DNA of 64,000 nucleotides, taken from positions 1-64,000 of the IMG/VR virus record IMGVR_UViG_3300011988_000002; one strand, given 5' to 3'. This document shows positions 660-17,348 of this stretch, piece after piece (within the stretch, counting starts at the first letter, position 1; the number at the start of each line of letters is the position of its first letter). A program made the translations under genes and the position numbers. The notes below the pieces were generated by a model. The model worked only from the letters and a program-made list of their open reading frames with translations. It was not told the origin of the DNA and made no database searches. The stretch is from a virus.

Positions 660-1442
660 TCACTTCCTATCCCATAATTTTACTAAACTAAAACTTGCAA
701 CTGGAGTTTTACCTTCATCTGCAATATATGCTTTTCTAAAATCATCATATATCTTTTGATTTTCAGGTGTAAAAAGTATTGATTTACCAACATTTATCAT
801 TTTCTTAACTCTGTAATCATCTTTCATTCCACTATCTATTATAAGTTGATATAAAAGTACATCAATCCAGAAATAATCAGATATAAGAAATGTCTCAACT
901 CCTAAATCTCCAGTACAGAAAAAGTCTAAATAATTACTTATTCCTTCTTTTGTATCATTAAATGTTTTAATATTACTTCCAAATATATTCCTAAGTATTC
1001 TCTCATCATCAATTAAGTTATCTTTCATTATAAAAAAATAATTATTCTCATCAGAGATTATACTCTCAGCATTCAAGTTTACGCTACTTGGTATAGTAGC
1101 GTAACTCAAATTCTTGTAATGTTTAATAAGAAATCTTAACTCATCTGCAAATAGAATAGAAGGTTTAAAGTAAATAAAGTTATTTTTAATATCTTGTGGC
1201 ATAAACATACCACCTTCCTTAGGCATAAGAGATATCCTATTCATAGAATCAACTCTTATAGTATAAGGTGTAATAAGTGAATGCTCTAGTTTTTCAACTA
1301 TAGAAGTTAAAAGATTATCAAAATCCTGACTCTTTATACGTCTTGCATTATCTGACAAGATATCAAGACACCATAAATCATAACTAAACACCACATTATT
1401 AACAGTAGATACTATACTACTTTTTACTCTTAGTTCGTCCAT
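660..1442 (-). CDS. hypothetical protein (260 aa)
   Basis: Long ORF whose stop lies 5 nt from the next gene; its start overlaps the upstream DHH gene by 13 nt. Confidence 0.6.
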   Translation of the reverse strand: MDELRVKSSIVSTVNNVVFSYDLWCLDILSDNARRIKSQDFDNLLTSIVEKLEHSLITPYTIRVDSMNRISLMPKEGGMFMPQDIKNNFIYFKPSILFADELRFLIKHYKNLSYATIPSSVNLNAESIISDENNYFFIMKDNLIDDERILRNIFGSNIKTFNDTKEGISNYLDFFCTGDLGVETFLISDYFWIDVLLYQLIIDSGMKDDYRVKKMINVGKSILFTPENQKIYDDFRKAYIADEGKTPVASFSLVKLWDRK

Positions 1443-2725
1443 TCGTTATAAACCTCCTTAAAGTTAAGATAGAAAAACTCATCTAGTGCATGTCTTATTC
1501 TTTCAAATGATATTCTTGTAGCAATTCTGTTATATGTTTCATCATCAAATATGCTCTTAGTATCACGTCTACAACTAAATCCAGCAGCATTTTTATGTCC
1601 ACCACCAGATAAACCATAGGTTTCACCAATATATCTTGCAATTTGAGGAGATTCAACCTCTGTTACATGATAACCAGTATACACAGTTCCACCTGTTTTA
1701 TGAAATGTTATAACGATATCTACATCTTTATACTCTTCCATAATCTTTTCTTTTATATTTGATGCAAATTTCCATTCAGCTGGAACAAGAGCTATTTTAA
1801 ACATCTTTTCTAAAATACCACTTGTAGTTGAATCTCTGAAGTAATTTACAAATCCAGTTAAAGGGTGATTCTTAGCTTCATTATAGGCAACTTCTACAAG
1901 TTCTTTATATTTTCTGTCACAGTCATTAACCCAACTATAAACAGAATCAGAATTTAAACTTACTCCAGAATCTATAAAAGCTACAAGTATTCTAAGTAAT
2001 TCAACATTATCATCAACTACTTTATCAACTGTACCCCATTTTTGACCTCTATACCATTGAGCATCTCCAGGTTTATATCTTTGTTTCCATAAGAAAGTAT
2101 CCCAAAGATTAACATTGTATGACCATGCTCTTAGATTTCTTTCATAAAGTTGAACTTGCCATAGCTCAGCTTCACTATCTAACCTTTTCATACATGCTCC
2201 ATAACTTATAGTTGCTCCACAATGTTCTATATCAGTTAAAACTTGATAATCAGCTAGTCTATCTTCACCTATAACAGCAACTATTTCATCTCTAGTTCTA
2301 ACATTTCCAGAATGATGGTCATACCAACTAAATTTAACATTATCTGGATAGTCTGCTTCATTAAACGTCTTTAAGTCTAAAAACATTCTGTCTGTTATGA
2401 CTACTTCTATATCTACTATATAAGGAATATCCTTATATCTGTCTAAAACCTCTTTAACTGCATACTTACATATCATTGAAGTCTCTTCCTCACGAGATGT
2501 TCTTTCCATGTAGACATCATAGTTAATCTTTATAGTCTCAGCATACATCATCATATTAAGTGCTGATGTAACCCCATCTAAGTCAGAATGAGATACTATT
2601 ATAAGATGCTTAGGATTTCTGTACACAACACCACTGTCATCAAACCCTCTAACAGCTAAATACTTTCTTTCATCTTTCCAAAAGTCTCCATTTTCATCAA
2701 CTTTTGCATTCCAATTTCTTCTCAT
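1430..2725 (-). CDS. DHH/DHHA1-family phosphoesterase (RecJ-core, NrnA or GdpP-like nuclease or phosphodiesterase)
   Basis: DHH motif I IVSHSDLDGVTS, motif III WYDHHSGN and the DHHA1 motif SGGGHKNAAGF are all present in the translation. Confidence 0.8.
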   Translation of the reverse strand: MRRNWNAKVDENGDFWKDERKYLAVRGFDDSGVVYRNPKHLIIVSHSDLDGVTSALNMMMYAETIKINYDVYMERTSREEETSMICKYAVKEVLDRYKDIPYIVDIEVVITDRMFLDLKTFNEADYPDNVKFSWYDHHSGNVRTRDEIVAVIGEDRLADYQVLTDIEHCGATISYGACMKRLDSEAELWQVQLYERNLRAWSYNVNLWDTFLWKQRYKPGDAQWYRGQKWGTVDKVVDDNVELLRILVAFIDSGVSLNSDSVYSWVNDCDRKYKELVEVAYNEAKNHPLTGFVNYFRDSTTSGILEKMFKIALVPAEWKFASNIKEKIMEEYKDVDIVITFHKTGGTVYTGYHVTEVESPQIARYIGETYGLSGGGHKNAAGFSCRRDTKSIFDDETYNRIATRISFERIRHALDEFFYLNFKEVYNEWTN

Positions 2726-3226: not shown

Positions 3227-4428
3227 CTACCTTGATTTAATGTATTTGTAGAAGTTAGAACCTTTACGACTAGACTTCTTCTCTTTTTCAATATTTTTAG
3301 CTTCAACACTGTCTTTTCTATACCCATTTAAATAGTTACTAGCATATTCTTCTGGTATGTCAACACCATATTGATGAATAAATCCGTCTGTAAATAGATT
3401 TTCACGTTTACGTTTATTATAAGTATCTATAGTCTGAGTAAAACTCATATCAACTGGGTACACTACATGACCCAAATCTCCTCCAACTCTACCAACTCTT
3501 GATAAAGTTTGAGTTATCTCAGACCTTGCAAATGTAAACTCTAGTAAAACTATAACTCTTATGTGTTTATCGTCATAACCTCTACCTATTTTTTGTGTAG
3601 TAGAAACTATAAATTTCTTATTCTTATTTTCTTCATTCTCTTTTAAACTTTTACTACTATTAACTATACCTATATCATCTTCATCTATACCAAATCTTTC
3701 ATGAAGTTTATTTGCAACTATCTCACAGTTTTCAATTCTACCTACGAAAAATACTATTCTTCCTTCTTCACTAAGCATCTTCTTCATAAGAGAATCATCT
3801 TTAATATACATTTTATCCATAATAAAATCTAAGAATATATCTTTACGAGCAAATATATTATTATACTCTATCTTAAACATAGATTCATTCCAACCGCGAA
3901 TCTTCATAAATTCCTTTCTAGTTGGATTCATCTTGCCTCTTATAAAGTATATGTTTTTATTTGCAGGTACTTTAACATCATCACCTAGATGCAATACATT
4001 CTTATAAATTATCTGAAATACTCTGTTATCTGTTTGTAAGTTCCTATAAGGTGTACCTGTAAGATATAGGTTATATTCAAAGTTAAAATATACTTCAAGT
4101 TTATATGTAGTAGACACATTTCTATCTACTTCGTCTATTACTTTCATTCTAAGATTCATTTTATTACAAATAATATCAGATATAGTCTCTATACCATATG
4201 TTTTAATTATACTCTCAAGCATAGCCTGAGTTAGAAATAAACCGTTTATTTTATCGTATTTAAGGTCCATTATATCAGAACCTTTCGATAAAACATACAT
4301 TCCTTCTTTTCCTAAAATCTTACAAAAAGATTCATATCCTTGCTTTATTAAATCACTGTTATATACAATGAATATAAATTTACACTTGAGCTCATGTACT
4401 GTATGAGCTGCAAGATAAGTTTTACCTA
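3227..4428 (-). CDS. SNF2-family SF2 helicase, exon 2 (carries motif I GKT through motif VI)
   Basis: Upstream of the annotated Met the frame stays open and reads LGKTYLAAHTVHEL. Further motifs are VIDEVD (II), LYLTGTPYRN (III) and QTLSRVGRVGGD (VI). Joining it to exon 1 rebuilds motif I as ILALAPG-L-GKT. Confidence 0.8.
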
Positions 4429-5494
4429 CGTTTTTGACTGACTATGTCTTTAAACTAATAATAGTTTACGAACCGTTTCGGGATAATCCCTACTCTACTC
4501 CCTATTAGATTTAAGATTTGCATAACTTAAACCTATTTCTTCCAAATTAGTTAAGTGCCTTACCTCATAGAAGTAGCCGTAATAAAAAGTATCCTATCCC
4601 AATAACACCATAAATATGATGCTATCGGGATTTGATATGACTACAACTCTAATTTTATGGGTTTCGATAGTCGATGGACACATATGTTTAGATATTATTT
4701 AGATTTTGTTACTACTGTAAGTACTACATCAGTTGCTGAAGTTAAAGAATTAAATTCACTTTGTTCTTTAGTACCTGTTACACCACCAGTTGCAATCCAT
4801 TTAAGACCATCTCTTTGCTTAGTAGCTGCTTTTTCTGTTTTAATAGTAACTGTAGGCCAAGCTAGTCCTTTAAGACCAACTGGTCCTGTAGGTGAAGTTC
4901 CTGTAAGTTCTATTTCTTTAGAAGCTTGTCCATCCACTAATGCATCTTCTCCACCTTTGAATGTAACTTTAATCTTTTTATTTGCAGGTGTTGACGGTGC
5001 TCCTGATACTTTAGCTTTTATAACTTCTTTCATAGATTTGATTACAAATCCTGCTATAAGTTCTGGTTCAGTTTTAGATACAGACGATACATCTTTTGCA
5101 ACCATAGAATCAACTGGAACTTTAGTTATAATAGTTTCATCAAATCCAGCTTTATTAAGTTCAAGTCTTAGATGTATTAAAACTTGTTGATTTTCACCTA
5201 CATTTTGCCAGAACTTAGCAACTTCTGGTTTGCTAGATTCATTAGCTTTTTTAACTACTGCTTCAATAAACTTATTTATGTTATACATAACATTCCTCCT
5301 TTTTATATTAATTTTATTTGCAAATTTTATCTAAACATACTTTGTTGCTCAACACGTTCTTAGTTAATACATTTTTACTATATCAATAAGCTTTAACTTA
5401 TTGCCATAAAGATATTACTATCATTTACTTAGTAGTATAACATTATAAACGAACGCTCCAAGCAATTAGATTCGTAAGGGCTTAGTACAACTTA
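4429..5494 (-). mobile_element. Group I self-splicing intron (1066 nt) in the helicase gene, carrying an internal ORF
   Basis: Exon 1 ends in U (GGGU) and the intron ends in G (AAAAACG). The internal guide sequence CUAAGCCCU pairs with the exon-1 end AGGGU to form P1, with a G.U wobble at the splice site, and with UAG of exon 2 to form P10. An S-like element AAGACAUAGUC lies 12 nt from the 3' splice site, and there are td-like blocks CGACUAUCGAAAC and GGAGUAGAGUAGGG....CCGAAACGG. If the intron is not removed, translation stops 9 codons in (LSCTKPLRI*). Confidence 0.75.
4695..5288 (-). CDS. Intron-encoded protein of unknown function (197 aa; no HNH, GIY-YIG, LAGLIDADG or His-Cys box signature)
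   Basis: Strong Shine-Dalgarno AAAAGGAGGAATGTTATG. The ORF lies entirely inside the intron. It is rich in K, V, T, G and S, with only one His and one Tyr. Confidence 0.65.
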   Translation of the reverse strand: MYNINKFIEAVVKKANESSKPEVAKFWQNVGENQQVLIHLRLELNKAGFDETIITKVPVDSMVAKDVSSVSKTEPELIAGFVIKSMKEVIKAKVSGAPSTPANKKIKVTFKGGEDALVDGQASKEIELTGTSPTGPVGLKGLAWPTVTIKTEKAATKQRDGLKWIATGGVTGTKEQSEFNSLTSATDVVLTVVTKSK

Positions 5495-5879
5495 ACCCTG
5501 GGGCTAATGCAAGAATACATCTTCTATCTTCATTGAATAAAAAGTGACTGCTAAGTTTCTTAGCAAGTTCTTTTTGGTGTTCTAGTGGTGGATAAGCAAG
5601 ATTATAACTTATTAAATCAACCAGTGGTATTTTAACTTGCTTATAATTATACCTAGTTCTAGTAACACTTTGTATTATATTCTTAGATATTTTAGGAATT
5701 CCTATAACTGTATCTTCACCACCATCTATTTCAAAGAATGCTTTAGGTATTTGTGCTTTTGTATTAAAGTCTATTATTGAAAGTTTTGACCTTAAATTCA
5801 AATATGCTCCGTTATCTAAAGTTGACTTTGGAATATAAAATGCAGTAGTTGTCTCTAGTATATCAAATATAGGAAACAC
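5495..5879 (-). CDS. SNF2-family SF2 helicase, exon 1 (N-terminal 128 codons plus 1 nt)
   Basis: Ends ...RRCILALAPG just before the intron. The only in-frame start is a GTG that directly abuts the AAGGAGG Shine-Dalgarno; an ATA codon lies 8 nt downstream of it. Confidence 0.7.
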
Positions 5880-12714: not shown

Positions 12715-14526
12715 CTAACTTATTCCTATAACTATATCATTTGCTTGTAAATCTATTCCTTTAACTCCAAGTGCAGACCTAGATACAAGTTTTATAGTGC
12801 TTGTATCACAAACTAAGCTTTTACCCATCTTAGTATATATAAGGATAGATTCCTCACTTGTCTTTCTTACCATTGCAACTATTCTGTTATTATGTTTAGT
12901 TTGTGTACATTTAACTCCTGCTCCATTTCTATTCTGTACTTTAAACTCATCTGGATTACATCTTTTAATATAACCCGATTCTGTTACAAATACAACAGGA
13001 GTATTACCATCAACTCTACACATAGAACTTACAAAGTCTTTTTCATCTTTATCAAGTTTTATACCACTAACTCCTACAGCTCCAATTCCAGTAGGTTTAA
13101 TTTCATTACTATCTATTCTTATACACATTCCATTATGTGTTGCAATGAGTATGTCTCTTTCTTTGGAGCTATCTGGAATTATAACTATATCAACTATCTT
13201 ATCAGCACTGTCAACACCAATTAAGTTCTTTCCATTTGCATTAATCTTTTTAAGATTTTTAAGGTCTGTTGATTTTACCATTCCTTTAACAGAACAGCTA
13301 ATAAGAGTTCCAAATTCATTATTATTTACAAATACAAGAACTATATTTTCACTGTCTCTAAGACTTAGTAAGTTTCTTGCAAGTGCTCCTCTTGCAAGTT
13401 TTGATACAGTATCAATCTCATAAGCTTTCTTAGTGTAAACCCTACCTTTAGAAGTTAAAAACACAAGTTGCTGTCTTGCTGTTACATTAAGAACTTGCTT
13501 TATTTCATCCCCTTCTAGTAAAGTTCCTACTGAGTTTCCTTTTCCTCCACGTCTTTGTTCTTTGTCAAGAGGTTCTGTACGTTTTATATAACCTTTTTGT
13601 GTCATTATAATAGTACATGGTTCATCAGGAATTGTATCCTCTTCTGTTATATCATCTCTTTTCTTTTGTATCTTTGTTTTACGTGTAAGATAAGGCTTTG
13701 CTTCTTTGATATTTCTTATATCTTCCCATTCCTTAATCATATACTCGTCTACATCTTTATTAGATTTAGTTCTTGTAAGTCTTGTAAGTGTTTTAATTCT
13801 TTCTTTTACATCTTTTTCCTCTTCTCTTGCATCACTCATATTAAGCTTTGTAAGTCTTGCAAGTTTAAGGTCTAGTATATACTGAGCTTGAGCTTCAGAT
13901 AACTTAAAAGACTTCATAAGTTCTTCTCTTGCAGAAGATGTATCTTTTGCATTGCGAATAATCTTTACGGCTCTGTCTATATCTTTAGTAACTATAAATA
14001 AACCTTCAAGTATATGAAGTCTGTCTTCATTTTTCTTAAGTTCTATCATAAACTTATTATGAAGACAAGTTTCCCTAAAAGAAATAAATGAACTCATGAT
14101 ATCTTTTATATTAACTTTCTCTTTAAACTTACCATTCACAAGTAAGTTATGTAAAGGTTTTAGCACTTTCTCAAAAGGAGTTTTATGTATAAGAAGAGAA
14201 ACTACTCTGTCTATAGTTTCTCCTTTTGCTAAATCTATACATATTCTAATACCACCTTTTTGAGTAGTCTCATCTCTTATGTCTTTTATATTGAGCTCCC
14301 CGTTATCAACTAATGTTCCAACAGCAATAGTTATATCTGGTATTTTAGTATTATAAGGAATAGAAGTAATAACTAGTCTTTCATTACCTTTACTATCCTT
14401 TTCTACTTTATATTCACCTCTTACTCTTACATATCCATCACCACTTGTATAACATCTTTTAAGTCCGTCTGTTCCATTTATAATACCCCCTAATGGAAAG
14501 TCAGGACCTTTTATTATTTCATACAT
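12715..14526 (-). CDS. gyrA: DNA gyrase / topoisomerase IV subunit A homolog, C-terminal part (from the GPDFP motif onward)
   Basis: The motifs MYEIIKGPDFPLGG and AQYILDLKLARLTKL are colinear with GyrA. It is in the same frame as the upstream fragment, separated from it by a single TAA. Confidence 0.8.
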   Translation of the reverse strand: MYEIIKGPDFPLGGIINGTDGLKRCYTSGDGYVRVRGEYKVEKDSKGNERLVITSIPYNTKIPDITIAVGTLVDNGELNIKDIRDETTQKGGIRICIDLAKGETIDRVVSLLIHKTPFEKVLKPLHNLLVNGKFKEKVNIKDIMSSFISFRETCLHNKFMIELKKNEDRLHILEGLFIVTKDIDRAVKIIRNAKDTSSAREELMKSFKLSEAQAQYILDLKLARLTKLNMSDAREEEKDVKERIKTLTRLTRTKSNKDVDEYMIKEWEDIRNIKEAKPYLTRKTKIQKKRDDITEEDTIPDEPCTIIMTQKGYIKRTEPLDKEQRRGGKGNSVGTLLEGDEIKQVLNVTARQQLVFLTSKGRVYTKKAYEIDTVSKLARGALARNLLSLRDSENIVLVFVNNNEFGTLISCSVKGMVKSTDLKNLKKINANGKNLIGVDSADKIVDIVIIPDSSKERDILIATHNGMCIRIDSNEIKPTGIGAVGVSGIKLDKDEKDFVSSMCRVDGNTPVVFVTESGYIKRCNPDEFKVQNRNGAGVKCTQTKHNNRIVAMVRKTSEESILIYTKMGKSLVCDTSTIKLVSRSALGVKGIDLQANDIVIGIS

Positions 14527-14529
14527 AGC

Positions 14530-15141
14530 TTATGTTGTAATACTTCTGTTTTTTATATATTCTATACATAAATTTATTACATCATTAAGGTTATGTGGTA
14601 AAAAAGATGCTGCAAATCCAACTCCTATACCAATGTTTCCATTTATTAATATATCTGGTAAAATTTCTGGAAAATAAAGAGGCATAAGTAAACTATCATC
14701 ATAATTAGGAATATACTCTACAACATCTTTTGCTAAATCTTTAAGTATTATCTTTTCTGTATACCAATTTAATTTACACTCAGTATATCTTTTATCAGCC
14801 TCTTGGTCTGCTGAGATAGAACCAAAATTTCCATTTGGTGATATATAAGGTATATTCATAGAGAAATCTTGTGCCATATTTACAAGTGTTCCATATGCAG
14901 ATGAGTCACCATGTGGATGATATTTACCTATGACTTCTCCGACTATTCTTGCAGATTTTACAAAAGGACCATTATAACTTACCTTTAAATCGTGCATAGC
15001 ATATAAAACTGCAAGTGATGATGGCTTTTGATTATCTTCAATATTAGAAATTGCTCTTCCTTGTATAACCATTCTAGCATAGTCTATATAACTTTCAGAA
15101 AGGTCATCTATTATATCTTTCTCTTCTATAATTGCAGCCAT
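14530..15141 (-). CDS. gyrA: DNA gyrase / topoisomerase IV subunit A homolog, N-terminal fragment with the catalytic tyrosine
   Basis: VLYAM, GKYHPHGDSSAYGTLVNMAQ and the active-site block DKRYTE (Tyr) are present. It ends ...IEYIKNRSITT then TAA. A GGAGGA Shine-Dalgarno lies upstream. Confidence 0.8.
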   Translation of the reverse strand: MAAIIEEKDIIDDLSESYIDYARMVIQGRAISNIEDNQKPSSLAVLYAMHDLKVSYNGPFVKSARIVGEVIGKYHPHGDSSAYGTLVNMAQDFSMNIPYISPNGNFGSISADQEADKRYTECKLNWYTEKIILKDLAKDVVEYIPNYDDSLLMPLYFPEILPDILINGNIGIGVGFAASFLPHNLNDVINLCIEYIKNRSITT

Positions 15142-15308: not shown

Positions 15309-15607
15309 CGAATAGTATGCTAATTTTTTAATCACATCTACCCCGACTATATCTTCACCTCTATTAGAGGGTACACCATTTCTTATTACATGAGTGCAAT
15401 TAACTCAAAACCTTATCTTCTATAAGGAAATCTACTCTTGTTATATATCTCTACATAACCGCCTAGTCTGTGAACGTTAAATTATACTTCTATAAAGTCT
15501 TCGCTACTGATTATTCATTTAGGCAACACTTTGGTATCCTAAAGACCTCCCAGTATAAAAATGTATTATTCCAAAACATCACTGTTTTTCGGGGCTAGTT
15601 TTCGTCA
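15309..15607 (-). mobile_element. Group I self-splicing intron (299 nt, no ORF) in gyrB
   Basis: Exon 1 ends AAAGGGU and the intron ends ...CUAUUCG. It has an R-like element GUUCACAGACUAG and an S element AAGAUAUAGUCGG. The internal guide sequence CUAGCCC pairs with GGGU to form P1 and with UAG of exon 2 to form P10. Unspliced read-through stops at TGA after 9 codons. Confidence 0.8.
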
Positions 15608-17348
15608 ACCCTTTGAAACGAGTTACCATAAAATTTGTAATTCCTTTATCTTTAAGCTCTTTTACATACCTATCTTTATCATTATCTGTATCAAAGTAAG
15701 TTATTTTCTTACCTTGTATTACTCTATACAGAGGTGGACATGCTGAATAAAGTTTTCCTTCTTGTATTATCTCTGGCATTAATCTAAAGAAAAGAGTAGT
15801 AAGTAATGTACGAATATGTGAACCGTCTAAATCTCGATCGGTCATAATTATAATTTTACCATATCTCATTTTTTTAATGTCAAATGTATCTAAATATCCT
15901 GCACCTATAGCATTTATTATAGAACGAACCTCTTCATTCTTTAATATCTCTACCAAATCTTTCTTTTCAACATTTGCTATTTTACCTCTTATTGGAAGTA
16001 TAGCTTGATGAGTTACATCTCTACCTTGCTTAGCACTCCCAGCTGCTGAATTTCCTTCACAAATTAGAAGCTCTCTATCTTCTACTTTAGTATGACTTGA
16101 GCAATCTGCAAGTTTGCCTTTAAATTTATCAACCATACTTTTCTTAGTATCAGAATTTGCATCTTTTATTTTACGTATTTCTTCTCTTTGCTTTCTGGTT
16201 TTCATAATCCTATTAAGTATTATATTTGCTTCTTTAGGATTATCTGTTAGATATAGCTCAAGTGCACTATAAGTGCTACTGCTCACCATACCTACAAGCT
16301 CTGGATTATTTACCTTTGCTTTAGTTTGACCTTCAAACTCAGGTTTACCCATTTTAACAGATACAACTGCCATAAGACCTTCAAGAACCTCACTACCTTC
16401 AAAGTTTTGGTCCTTATCTTTAAGGAAACCTGTGTCTCTTGCAATCTTATTTATAACTCTTGTAAGACCTGTTCTAAAACCTTGCTCATGAGTACCTCCA
16501 TTTATCATACGAAGATAGTTTACATAAGACCTTATGTTATCTTGTGATTTATCATGATAAGCAAGAACTATTTCTACTTTATCAGTTCCTTCTCCTTCTT
16601 TTGCTGGACCTTCTCCTGTAAAATAGAAAGGTTTGCAAATAAGACTACGTTCTGTTTCTTTTGCTATTTTATCAAGAAGTTCTGTTATTCCTCCTTTTGA
16701 ATAAAATACTTGTTGCTCTCCAGTACGTTCATCAGTAACTGTAAACTTAAGTCCACGAGTTATATAAGCAGCTCCTAAACAGAAATCGCATATTTGGTTA
16801 AATTTAAACTCTTGTGTTGCTTTAAATATCTTTGGACTTGGTTTAAACTTAACTATAGTACCTGTATCTAGTGATTTACCAATTTCTTCAACTGGTGTAA
16901 GTACCTTACCAAAGGAATATCTTTGTCTAAATACCTTTCCTTCACGATGTACCGTAACTATTGCATCGTCTGATAAAGCACAAACTGCTTTACATCCAAT
17001 TCCATGAAGTCCAATACTATGTCCATAAGTAGAATTATCAAGTTTTCCTGTTGAGTTCATAACTGTAAATAGAACTTGTAGTGTTGGTATTCCGTATTTT
17101 TTGTGTGGAGCTACTGGAATACCTCCTCCATTATCTTCAATTGAGATATATCCATCTTTTGTAATAACTACATTTATATCAGTACAAACACCCCTTGCAT
17201 ATTCATCTATTGAGTTTGAGATGATTTCTATTGCAAGATGATGAAGCCCAATATTATCTGTATTCCCTATATACATAGCTGGACGAAGTTGAAGTGGTTC
17301 TAACCCTTCCATTACCTCAATTGCATCTGCTGAGTAAGATTTACTCAT
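15608..17348 (-). CDS. gyrB: DNA gyrase subunit B homolog, exon 1 (ATPase, transducer and TOPRIM domains)
   Basis: Motifs HLAIEIISNSIDE, EGNSAAGS, PIRGKI and IMTDRDLDGSHI are present, and it ends at RFKGL, part of the KGLGEM motif. Confidence 0.85.

What the first reader, a model, noticed from the sequence alone, without database searches (positions are those of the whole stretch)
4429..5494. Group I intron splits an SNF2-type helicase gene exactly inside Walker A
The helicase N-terminal ORF stops 9 codons after ...ILALAPG. The annotated downstream ORF stays open upstream of its Met and reads LGKTYLAAH. Splicing at GGGU^ ... G^UAGG rebuilds the canonical SNF2 motif I, ILALAPGLGKT. The intervening 1066 nt has the hallmarks of a group I intron:
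- the last exon-1 base is U and the last intron base is G;
- an internal guide sequence CUAAGCCCU lies 14 nt into the intron and forms P1 with AGGGU (including the G.U wobble) and P10 with UAG;
- there is a P7-like GACUAU/AUAGUC pair and an S-like block AAGACAUAGUC near the 3' end;
- there are sequence blocks similar to the T4 td intron.
The host gene is only functional after RNA splicing.
Basis: partly seen in the sequence, partly recalled or inferred. Interest (0 to 1): 0.8.

Follow-up and report, generated by a model that had tools for sequence, protein, structure and literature searches.

The report
Group I intron in phage helicase
A self-splicing RNA (group I intron) of a well-known kind interrupts a phage helicase gene inside its ATP-binding motif; the unusual part is that the gene it carries is not a recognisable homing endonuclease and varies greatly in size between related phages.

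Summary
On the minus strand an SF2 helicase gene is broken after ...ILALAPG at 5495. It resumes at 4428. Removing 4429..5494 (1066 nt) gives ILALAPGLGKTYLAAH, which aligns without a gap to 11 uninterrupted homologues.

The insert is a structured RNA with group I anatomy:
- P1 with a U.G pair at the 5' splice site.
- P3 to P8 in canonical order, with the P3/P7 pseudoknot.
- An AAGACAUAGUC block (J8/7 plus P7').
- A terminal G that is always kept.

Across 12 variants, 96.9% of predicted pair cells are paired and 45 pairs show compensatory changes.

Rfam's Intron_gpI model does not reach threshold, scoring 16.4 bits on the 3' part only. However, a model built from this intron's core alone finds, at 64 bits, an ORF-less metagenomic intron that Rfam scores at 88 bits.

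- The helicase is ResIII/DEAD-like, not demonstrably SNF2.
- Subgroup IA2 was not tested.

That ORF has no nuclease similarity. In relatives the same loop holds 0.6 to 4.9 kb of different cargo.

Verdict: a new member of a known kind, with an unusual cargo. A second group I intron lies at 15309..15607.

The parts
5495..5879 (-). Helicase exon 1, about 128 codons plus the first base of the Leu codon. It ends ...ILALAPG + U. The start codon is uncertain (GTG at 5879 in the mechanical ORF list).
   Evidence: It aligns with the N-terminal parts of uninterrupted homologues.
4429..5494 (-). Group I intron, 1066 nt
   Evidence: The same boundaries (GGGU^U...G^UAGG) occur in relatives whose introns measure 1057-5229 nt.
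5477..5499 (-). P1 hairpin. AGGGU^UAAG (5499..5491) pairs with the internal guide CUAAGCCCU (5485..5477). U5495.G5481 is the wobble pair at the 5' splice site. The CUA of the guide can pair with exon-2 UAG (P10).
   Evidence: Helix 1 is 98.9% paired but invariant, so covariation does not test it.
5469..5474 (-). P3 5' strand, CGAAUC. It pairs with GGUUCG at 4474..4469. It follows P1 directly, so there is no P2.
   Evidence: Helix 2: 100% paired, with U.G changing to C-G and A-U to G.U on one side.
5466..5468 (-). J3/4 UAA. It is also the in-frame stop codon that ends translation of exon 1 on unspliced RNA.
5346..5464 (-). P4/P5 domain. P4 is UGCUUGG (5464..5458) with UUGAGCA (5352..5346). P5 is GCGU (5456..5453) with ACGU (5357..5354). 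Between them lies a ~95-nt P5 extension with two covarying hairpins.
   Evidence: Helices 3-5 (P5 pair AU:8, GC:3). These blocks are shared with the Rfam-positive intron L021.
5328..5340 (-). P6 5' strand, GUAUGUUUAGAUA
   Evidence: It pairs with 4694..4682. In helix 6, 6 of the 10 pairs counted there (5340..5331 with 4691..4682) have changes on both sides, and 100% of cells are paired. This includes the relative where the two strands are ~4.9 kb apart (L008).
4695..5288 (-). Intron ORF in the P6 loop: 197 aa, with a GGAGG ribosome-binding site at 5299..5295. Predicted as an N-terminal helical domain plus a C-terminal beta-grasp domain resembling the InlB B-repeat. No nuclease similarity.
4682..4694 (-). 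P6 3' strand, UAUCUAAACAUAU. It starts immediately after the ORF's stop codon.
4667..4672 (-). P7 5' strand, GACUAU. It lies within the conserved block CCAUCGACUAUCGAAA.
   Evidence: Helix 7 is invariant.
4475..4666 (-). Peripheral domain between P7 and P3', in the position of P7.1/P7.2 in IA introns. It contains a long-range stem AAUUAG/CUAAUU, nested hairpins, the conserved strands GUAAGGCACUUAA, UUGGAAGAAAUA and GAGUAGAGUA, and the hairpin GGGAUUAUCCC.
   Evidence: Helices 8-14. The stem at columns 242-247/353-358 has 6 of 6 pairs with compensatory change. The equivalent short P7.1/P7.2 region in L021 is shown.
4469..4474 (-). P3 3' strand, GGUUCG
4451..4468 (-). P8 hairpin, UAAACU...AGUUUA
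   Evidence: Helix 15: 6 of 6 pairs with changes on both sides.
4440..4450 (-). J8/7 (AAGAC) plus the P7 3' strand (AUAGUC): the 'S' block
   Evidence: (aligned by Rfam to AAGAUAUAGUC)
4429..4439 (-). Short 3' tail ending in the terminal G (omega G) at 4429. No P9 hairpin.
   Evidence: the tail varies in length and sequence, and the final G is invariant.
3227..4428 (-). Helicase exon 2: (U)UA GGU AAA ACU... = LGKTYLAAH..., running to the stop codon.

Best explanation
The stretch 4429..5494 (minus strand) is a self-splicing group I intron. It has IA-type architecture: peripheral helices between P7 and P3', no P2, and almost no P9.

It sits in the gene of a phage SF2 (ResIII/DEAD-like) helicase, between the first and second base of the Leu codon of motif I (Walker A), APG-L-GKT.

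Inferred mechanism:
1. The internal guide GCCCU pairs with exon-1 AGGGU to form P1.
2. A free guanosine bound in P7 attacks after U5495.
3. The terminal G4429 then takes the G site, helped by the 3-bp P10 (UAG/CUA).
4. The exons are ligated, and only then can a P-loop-containing 528-aa helicase be made.

On unspliced RNA, ribosomes stop at the UAA that is also J3/4.

The P6 terminal loop carries a 197-aa gene with its own ribosome-binding site. This gene is conserved and under constraint, but it is not a recognisable homing endonuclease. In related phages the same loop holds longer versions of it, or additional large genes made of repeated modules.

What is shown:
- the exact junction;
- the fold, by covariation;
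- homology of the core to a certified group I intron;
- conservation of the arrangement in relatives.

What is inferred:
- catalysis itself;
- the timing and route of ORF expression;
- the function of the cargo.
For: Junction:
- The spliced product has a continuous ResIII domain across the junction (E 2e-17) plus Helicase_C. It matches phrog_16 'DNA helicase'.
- It aligns gap-free to 11 uninterrupted homologues. Two of them read APGLGKT.
- There is no start codon that would let exon 2 include GKT on its own.

Fold:
- 112 pairs in 15 helices were counted on 12 variants. 96.9% of cells are paired, against 34-44% when the partners are slid.
- 45 pairs have changes on both sides, against 7-12 when slid. 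None of 500 shuffles reached the observed value on any of the five measures.
- The ORF-deleted sequence folds at -120.1 kcal/mol, against -89.2 +/- 6.0 for shuffles (z = -5.2). P1, P3, P4, P5, P6 and P8 are recovered.
- P6 stays paired across loops of 0.7 to 4.9 kb.

Family:
- Rfam aligns the 3' part to Intron_gpI at 16.4 bits, E 0.052 in that small search.
- Model R1, built only from the trimmed core of these helicase introns, matches L021 355-565 over its full length at 64 bits, E 2e-13. Decoy loci that share a 21-nt pattern score 12.8 bits or less.
- The same L021 element scores 88.4 bits with Rfam Intron_gpI.

Conservation:
- All relatives of 69-99% identity are interrupted at the same site.
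- The terminal G is invariant.
Against: - Rfam Intron_gpI gives no hit at its gathering score, either on the window or on relatives. The 5' half alone gives nothing.
- P1 and P7 never vary, so covariation neither supports nor refutes them.
- The protein database holds no full-length product of more than 47% identity, such as a spliced transcript would give.
- No RNA data could be examined, so splicing was not observed.
- The very short 3' tail without P9, and the absence of P2, are atypical. Efficient splicing might therefore need a protein cofactor.
Confidence: 0.9

Rival explanations
1. It is a split gene without splicing. A mobile gene cassette inserted into the helicase gene, and the two halves are translated separately and associate as two polypeptides.
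For: - Gene callers report separate exon-1 and exon-2 proteins in all relatives.
- The same window holds a GyrA-like gene that really is split into two adjacent ORFs.
Against: - In the window the first possible start codon of the C-terminal half is 43 codons downstream of GKT. That polypeptide would have no P-loop, and the N-terminal one ends in APG.
- About 470 nt of non-coding flanks are conserved, and their base pairs covary, including across the cassette.
- The core is homologous to a certified group I intron.
Confidence: 0.03
2. It is a group I intron that no longer splices by itself and depends on a protein. That protein could be the intron ORF acting as a maturase, or a host or phage chaperone.
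For: - P2 and P9 are missing, and the P7.1 domain is very large.
- The ORF is highly conserved and always present in some form.
- Its N-terminal helical domain gives a faint HTH_WhiA match, E 0.09.
Against: - The ORF resembles no known maturase or LAGLIDADG protein.
- Its C-terminal part is a beta-grasp module whose copy number varies. That pattern suits a binding or decoration protein better than an RNA cofactor.
- All core elements are intact.
Confidence: 0.1
3. The 197-aa ORF is a homing endonuclease of an undescribed family, so the element is an ordinary mobile intron.
For: - It occupies the position (a peripheral loop) and has the size usual for phage intron endonucleases (review PMC3984707).
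- Two introns in this window share the exon context GGGU^UAGG.
Against: - No intron-less allele was seen among close relatives.
- The protein's modular length variation (197, 253, 419-437 aa), and the repeat-rich partner genes with a sialate-esterase-like end, are features of surface-binding proteins.
Confidence: 0.07

Closest known systems
Phage T4 td intron and other phage IA2 introns such as Staphylococcus phage Twort orf142-I2 (from my own knowledge of the literature; not compared by sequence here)
   Same: - A group I intron in an essential phage DNA-metabolism gene, at a conserved functional motif.
- Extra helices between P7 and P3' (P7.1/P7.2).
- A GACUAU/AUAGUC-type P7.
- For td, an ORF placed in the P6-region loop, and an early in-frame stop for ribosomes coming from exon 1.
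   Different: - The ORF here is not a GIY-YIG, HNH or other recognisable endonuclease.
- There is no P2 and no P9 hairpin.
- P7.1 is expanded to ~150 nt.
- The loop cargo varies from 0.6 to 4.9 kb among relatives.
ORF-less metagenomic group I intron L021 333-614 (JGI contig Ga0102930_1010644)
   Same: - Shared core blocks: ACGAAUCUAAUUGCU, CAUCGACUAUC, GGGAGUAG, CCGAAACGGUUCG and AAGAYAUAGUCAG, colinear in both.
- Model R1 of the helicase intron matches it at 64 bits.
- It passes Rfam Intron_gpI at 88.4 bits.
   Different: - It is 282 nt with no ORF.
- It has P2-type hairpins and a P9.
- Its P7.1 is 3-4 bp.
- It lies in a different, unidentified protein gene.
Group I introns of human-gut 'Jug' jumbo phages (PMC12880540)
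   Same: Large gut phages with many essential genes (terL, nrdD, DNA polymerase) interrupted by group I introns. Splicing was confirmed there by metatranscriptome reads.
   Different: - Those introns average ~206 nt, and the associated ORFs are HNH, GIY-YIG, PD-(D/E)xK or LAGLIDADG endonucleases.
- Those phages have 360-402 kb genomes, whereas the related contigs here are ~232-245 kb.
Group I introns with non-endonuclease cargo: the C. difficile IStron (a IA2 intron plus IS605 transposases; PMC3984707, PMC4227781) and the fungal mitochondrial rnl intron carrying rps3 (papers listed; content from my own knowledge)
   Same: A splicing-competent group I ribozyme carrying a gene that is not a homing endonuclease.
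   Different: - The IStron cargo is a transposon at the 3' end and provides mobility.
- rps3 is a housekeeping gene in an rRNA intron.
- Here the cargo sits in L6, is a variable set of beta-grasp or repeat-module proteins, and the host is a phage helicase gene.

Membership tests
Group I intron | The 5' splice site follows a U that forms a U.G wobble in P1 with an internal guide sequence near the intron's 5' end. | tested here: met
   AGGGU^UAAG pairs with CUAAGCCCU, with U5495.G5481 as the wobble. The pair is UG in 11 of 11 variants (helix 1). Because it is invariant, this is a structural fit, not covariation.
Group I intron | The last intron nucleotide is G (omega G). | tested here: met
   G4429. 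It is kept in all variants, although the preceding tail differs in length (6-27 nt) and sequence.
Group I intron | Core helices occur in the order P3-P4-P5-P5'-P4'-P6-P6'-P7-P3'-P8-P7', with the P3/P7 pseudoknot. | tested here: met
   P3, P4/P5, P6 and P8 are 100% paired, with one-sided or compensatory changes. P7 (GACUAU/AUAGUC) is 100% paired but invariant. RNAalifold recovers the nested part independently.
Group I intron | Conserved core sequence elements are present (J3/4-P4 'P', P4'-P6 'Q', J6/7-P7 'R', J8/7-P7' 'S'). | tested here: met
   Rfam aligns AAGACAUAGUC to AAGAUAUAGUC. The P, Q, R and S blocks are colinear with those of the Rfam-positive intron L021. R1 matches L021 at 64 bits.
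Group I intron | The sequence reaches the Rfam RF00028 gathering score of 50 bits. | tested here: not met
   There is no hit on the window or on relatives. The 3' part alone scores 16.4 bits and the 5' part scores nothing. The natural sequence has 0.8 kb in L6 and ~150 nt in P7.1. The tool does not accept an edited sequence, so the ORF-deleted form could not be scored.
Group I intron | The RNA self-splices using exogenous guanosine. | not testable with these tools
   This needs in vitro transcription with GTP, or RNA from infected cells.
Group I intron, subgroup IA2 | P7.1/P7.2 lie between P7 and P3', and the sequence matches a subgroup-specific model. | tested here: inconclusive
   Extra covarying helices occupy that position (helices 8-14), which fits IA. 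No subgroup models were available, and P2 is absent.
SNF2-family helicase (host gene) | The protein matches the SNF2-related ATPase domain above the Pfam cut-off. | tested here: not met
   SNF2-rel_dom scores 15.5 bits against a cut-off of 24.9. ResIII scores 64 bits (cut-off 22.5) and Helicase_C 27.8 bits (cut-off 23.5). There is no PDB relative by sequence.
Homing endonuclease (intron ORF) | The protein shows sequence or fold similarity to the LAGLIDADG, GIY-YIG, HNH/His-Cys, PD-(D/E)xK or EDxHD families. | tested here: not met

The most novel reading that the evidence does not exclude
In a clade of ~240-kb phages from human-associated metagenomes, the P6 loop of this helicase intron serves as a variable cargo site for accessory genes that are not endonucleases.

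The cargo seen so far:
- A protein with a conserved helical N-terminus and one to several beta-grasp (InlB B-repeat-like) modules: 197, 253 or 419-437 aa.
- In some lineages, an additional large repeat-module protein. One of these is 1363 aa and ends in a sialate-O-acetylesterase-like domain.

This makes introns of 1.06 to 5.2 kb that keep the ribozyme core and the P6 pairing. On this reading the intron would be a vertically inherited carrier, or expression platform, for surface-binding or virion-decoration genes, rather than a selfish homing element.
Probability: 0.5. Interest if true: 0.6.

Novelty: new member of a known kind. Interest (0 to 1): 0.42.

Why it matters
- Annotation: the helicase is one essential gene, not two fragments plus a 'hypothetical protein'. 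Gene callers and the general Rfam model both miss this in every related contig.
- Method: ORF-containing or peripherally expanded phage introns escape RF00028. They can be recovered by excising loops and using covariation.
- Biology: if the cargo reading holds, group I introns in large gut phages can carry, and perhaps time the expression of, variable adhesin-like genes. That would widen the view that phage intron ORFs are homing endonucleases.

Tried and rejected
- Rfam searches: at gathering on the whole window and on five relatives; at permissive E-values on 4200-5700 and on the 5' half. None gave a usable hit. Only the 3' part gave a weak one.
- Megablast of the locus and tblastn of the ORF against 50,697 phage records found no match. 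The helicase has only distant (about 26-30%) uninterrupted relatives, in Fusobacterium and Bacillus phages.
- The pattern GAAACGGTTCG...AGAYATAGTC was scanned against metagenome and genome contigs. About half of the hits were chance matches in GC-rich DNA (L019, L022, L028-30, L033-34, L038-40). I used them as decoys.
- A possible small helix flanking the P7 5' strand (UGGNN...NNCCA) and a CGA/UCG mini-hairpin inside P7 were considered. I dropped both as incompatible with P7 and not consistently paired.
- I looked for a spliced product in the 5.8-billion-protein collection. No full-length protein above 47% identity exists there.
- The sigma-70 promoter scan gave no more sites than shuffled sequence (8 found, 8.5 expected). 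Nothing can be said about a promoter for the ORF.
- The Pfam scan of the L021 host exon gave no family.
- Model R1 did not detect the second intron of the window, so the two introns are not close relatives.

Full report
**Where and what**

The feature lies on the minus strand. ORF 5466..5879 ends ...RRCILALAPG, then reads LSCTKPLRI and a stop. The frame of ORF 3227..4300 is open upstream to a stop only five codons before ...VGKTYLAAHTVHELKC.

Joining U5495 to U4428 makes CCA GGG U|UA GGU AAA ACU, which reads PGLGKT.

**Is the join real?**

- The 528-aa product gives one uninterrupted Pfam ResIII match across the junction (residues 98-257, E 2e-17), plus Helicase_C. It also matches phrog_16 'DNA helicase'.
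- Aligned with 11 uninterrupted homologues (37-47% identity, 518-562 aa), it needs no gap at the junction. G128, G130 and K131 are invariant, and two homologues read APGLGKT.
- In the window there is no ATG, GTG or TTG between the stop upstream of GKT and the Met at 4300. A separately translated C-terminal half would therefore lack the P-loop.
- The SNF2 label is not supported: SNF2-rel_dom scores 15.5 bits against a cut-off of 24.9. No solved structure is related by sequence.

**Relatives**

Proteins 69-99% identical to the product cover only exon 2. Their contigs reach up to ~245 kb and come from ENA, JGI and Logan assemblies (some sample and contig names, e.g. HMP, suggest human-associated samples). 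They show the same layout: exon 1 ending in ..AL(A/S)PG, GGGU^U, an insert, then G^UAGG(U/A)AA.

Insert lengths at this one site are 1057-1072, 1230, 1727-1780 and 5229 nt.

About 205 nt at the 5' end and 265-300 nt at the 3' end of the insert are conserved. The middle is coding and variable.

**The RNA fold**

I removed the coding loop and aligned 11 distinct full variants plus one 3' half (alignment A1). RNAalifold and inspection give the following elements:

- P1: AGGGU^UAAG with CUAAGCCCU, with the U.G pair at the splice site.
- No P2.
- P3: CGAAYC with GGUUCG.
- J3/4: UAA.
- P4: UGCUUGG with UUGAGCA.
- P5: GCGU with ACGU, followed by a two-hairpin extension.
- P6: GUAUGUUUAGAUA with UAUCUAAACAUAU, which encloses the ORF.
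- J6/7.
- P7: GACUAU with AUAGUC.
- A ~190-nt multi-helix domain between P7 and P3'.
- P8.
- J8/7: AAGAC.
- A tail of 6-27 nt.
- The terminal G.

Counting this structure on A1 gave the following:

| Measure | Observed | Partners slid by 1-3 columns |
|---|---|---|
| Cells paired | 96.9% | 34-44% |
| Pairs with changes on both sides | 45 | 7-12 |

- None of 500 shuffles reached the observed value on any of the five measures.
- The structure was partly derived from these same sequences, which favours it on 'cells paired'. The compensatory-pair counts are less affected.
- P6 has 6 of 10 pairs compensatory and is 100% paired. This holds even in L008, where its strands are 4.9 kb apart.
- The long-range P7.1 stem and P8 each have 6 of 6 compensatory pairs.
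- P1 and P7 never vary, so they are consistent but untested.
- The ORF-deleted window sequence folds at -120.1 kcal/mol, against -89.2 +/- 6.0 for shuffles (z = -5.2).

**Is it a group I intron?**

Rfam's RF00028 does not reach its gathering score:
- Nothing on the window, the 1.5-kb locus or the relatives.
- 16.4 bits (E 0.052 in a 281-nt search) on the 3' part, which aligns AAGACAUAGUC and the final G.
- Nothing on the 5' part.

I judge the test to be insensitive here, for two reasons.
- The natural sequence has 0.8 kb in L6 and a ~150-nt insertion in P7.1.
- An ORF-less 299-nt intron elsewhere in the window also reaches only 28.5 bits.

A bridge was found. A core pattern scan of metagenomes returned L021, a 282-nt ORF-less element that Rfam scores at 88.4 bits, E 7e-21.
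- L021 shares colinear blocks with the window intron: ACGAAUCUAAUUGCU, CAUCGACUAUC, GGGAGUAG, CCGAAACGGUUCG and AAGAYAUAGUCAG.
- I built covariance model R1 from the trimmed core of the helicase introns only (alignment A5; 170 positions, 38 pairs).
- R1 matches L021 355-565 end to end at 64 bits, E 2e-13.
- Decoy loci carrying the same 21-nt pattern score 12.8 bits or less.

The Rfam structure line for L021 also fixes the helix names used above.

The extra helices between P7 and P3' fit subgroup IA. The review PMC3984707 lists P7.1/P7.2 among class-defining features. IA2 itself was not tested.

ORF 4695..5288 (197 aa) has a GGAGG site 7 nt upstream. Its stop codon abuts the P6 3' strand.

- It has 31 close homologues, with a strongly conserved C-terminal half.
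- It has no Pfam or PHROG family and no match in 50,697 phage records.
- The AlphaFold model (pLDDT 83.8) shows a helical domain (residues 1-95) and a beta-rich domain (residues 105-192).

In relatives the same N-terminus is followed by more modules, giving proteins of 253 and 419-437 aa.

L008 and L041 carry a second, large repeat-module gene in the same loop: 1363 aa, and more than 606 aa on a truncated contig. The two are homologous at E 1e-10. The L008 protein ends in a sialate-acetylesterase-like domain (SASA, E 6e-5, 23.2 bits, just under the cut-off of 24.8).

L006 has yet other ORFs before the same 3' intron half.

So the loop cargo is variable and looks like surface-binding proteins rather than homing enzymes. 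Its function is inferred only.

**Mechanism**

Shown:
- the junction;
- the fold;
- the family relationship;
- conservation.

Inferred, from the established group I pathway:
- guanosine attack at U5495 within P1;
- exchange to G4429 in the P7 site;
- alignment of exon 2 by the 3-bp P10 (UAG/CUA);
- ligation.

Translation from exon 1 on unspliced RNA ends at the UAA that is J3/4. This limits ribosome entry into the core, as is known for T4 td (my own knowledge).

No intron-less allele exists among close relatives, and there is no recognisable endonuclease. Current mobility is therefore not evident, and vertical inheritance within this clade is the simpler reading.

**Comparison and novelty**

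Group I introns in essential genes of phages, including large gut phages with ~18 per genome and splicing verified by RNA reads, are well documented (PMC12880540; PMC3984707).

This one is a new member: a new host gene and site, and an expanded P7.1. Cargo that is not an endonuclease has precedents, namely IStrons and the fungal rnl intron with rps3. A variable adhesin-like cargo of up to 4.9 kb in L6 of a phage intron is, as far as my searches went, not described.

**Verdict**

- Observation: confirmed.
- Interpretation: supported, with corrections.
- Confidence that this is a splicing group I intron: 0.9.
- Interest: moderate, 0.42. It is higher (0.6) if the cargo reading is borne out.

Noticed in passing
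window 15309..15607 (minus strand): A second group I intron, 299 nt with no ORF, splits a GyrB-like gene (ORF 15579..17348; Pfam DNA_gyraseB and Toprim) inside the RFKG-L-GEMNP motif. It has the same exon context as the helicase intron (GGGU^U...G^UAGG, codons G-L-G) and a CUAGCCC guide. Rfam Intron_gpI scores 28.5 bits (E 1.5e-5 in a local search), below gathering. Model R1 does not detect it.
   Followed up: partly
window 12715..15141 (minus strand), junction at about 14527..14532: The GyrA-like gene is in two adjacent ORFs of 203 aa and 603 aa. They cover Pfam DNA_topoisoIV positions 1-172 and 175-429. Only TAA GCT separates them before the ATG, with no insert between them.
   Followed up: partly
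L008 4659..9887; L041 3794 to the contig end; L010 3159..4938; L013 2349..3578: The same intron site in related phages holds very different amounts of coding DNA in the P6 loop, giving introns of 1.06 to 5.23 kb. This includes a 1363-aa repeat protein with a SASA-esterase-like C-terminus.
   Followed up: partly
L031 versus L026 and L001 (composite alignment A1): The L031 intron has a 5' end (P1 loop to P5) like L026 and L032, but the rest is like L001. This suggests recombination between intron variants.
   Followed up: no
L021 333..614 (minus strand) and L021 1017..1139: An ORF-less group I intron (Rfam 88.4 bits) ends a 158-aa ORF (...DVNTDLASW) that has no Pfam family. No obvious downstream exon was identified. 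A second, weak R1 match (21.7 bits) lies at 1017-1139 on the same contig.
   Followed up: partly
window 5466..5468 (minus strand): The stop codon that ends exon-1 translation on unspliced RNA is the J3/4 UAA of the ribozyme. In relatives the in-frame stop lies elsewhere: earlier in L001 and later in L008.
   Followed up: no
window 1430..2725 (minus strand): The gene downstream of the helicase encodes a 431-aa protein with a sub-threshold DHH phosphoesterase match (24.2 bits against a cut-off of 28.1). This fits a replication or repair gene module.
   Followed up: no
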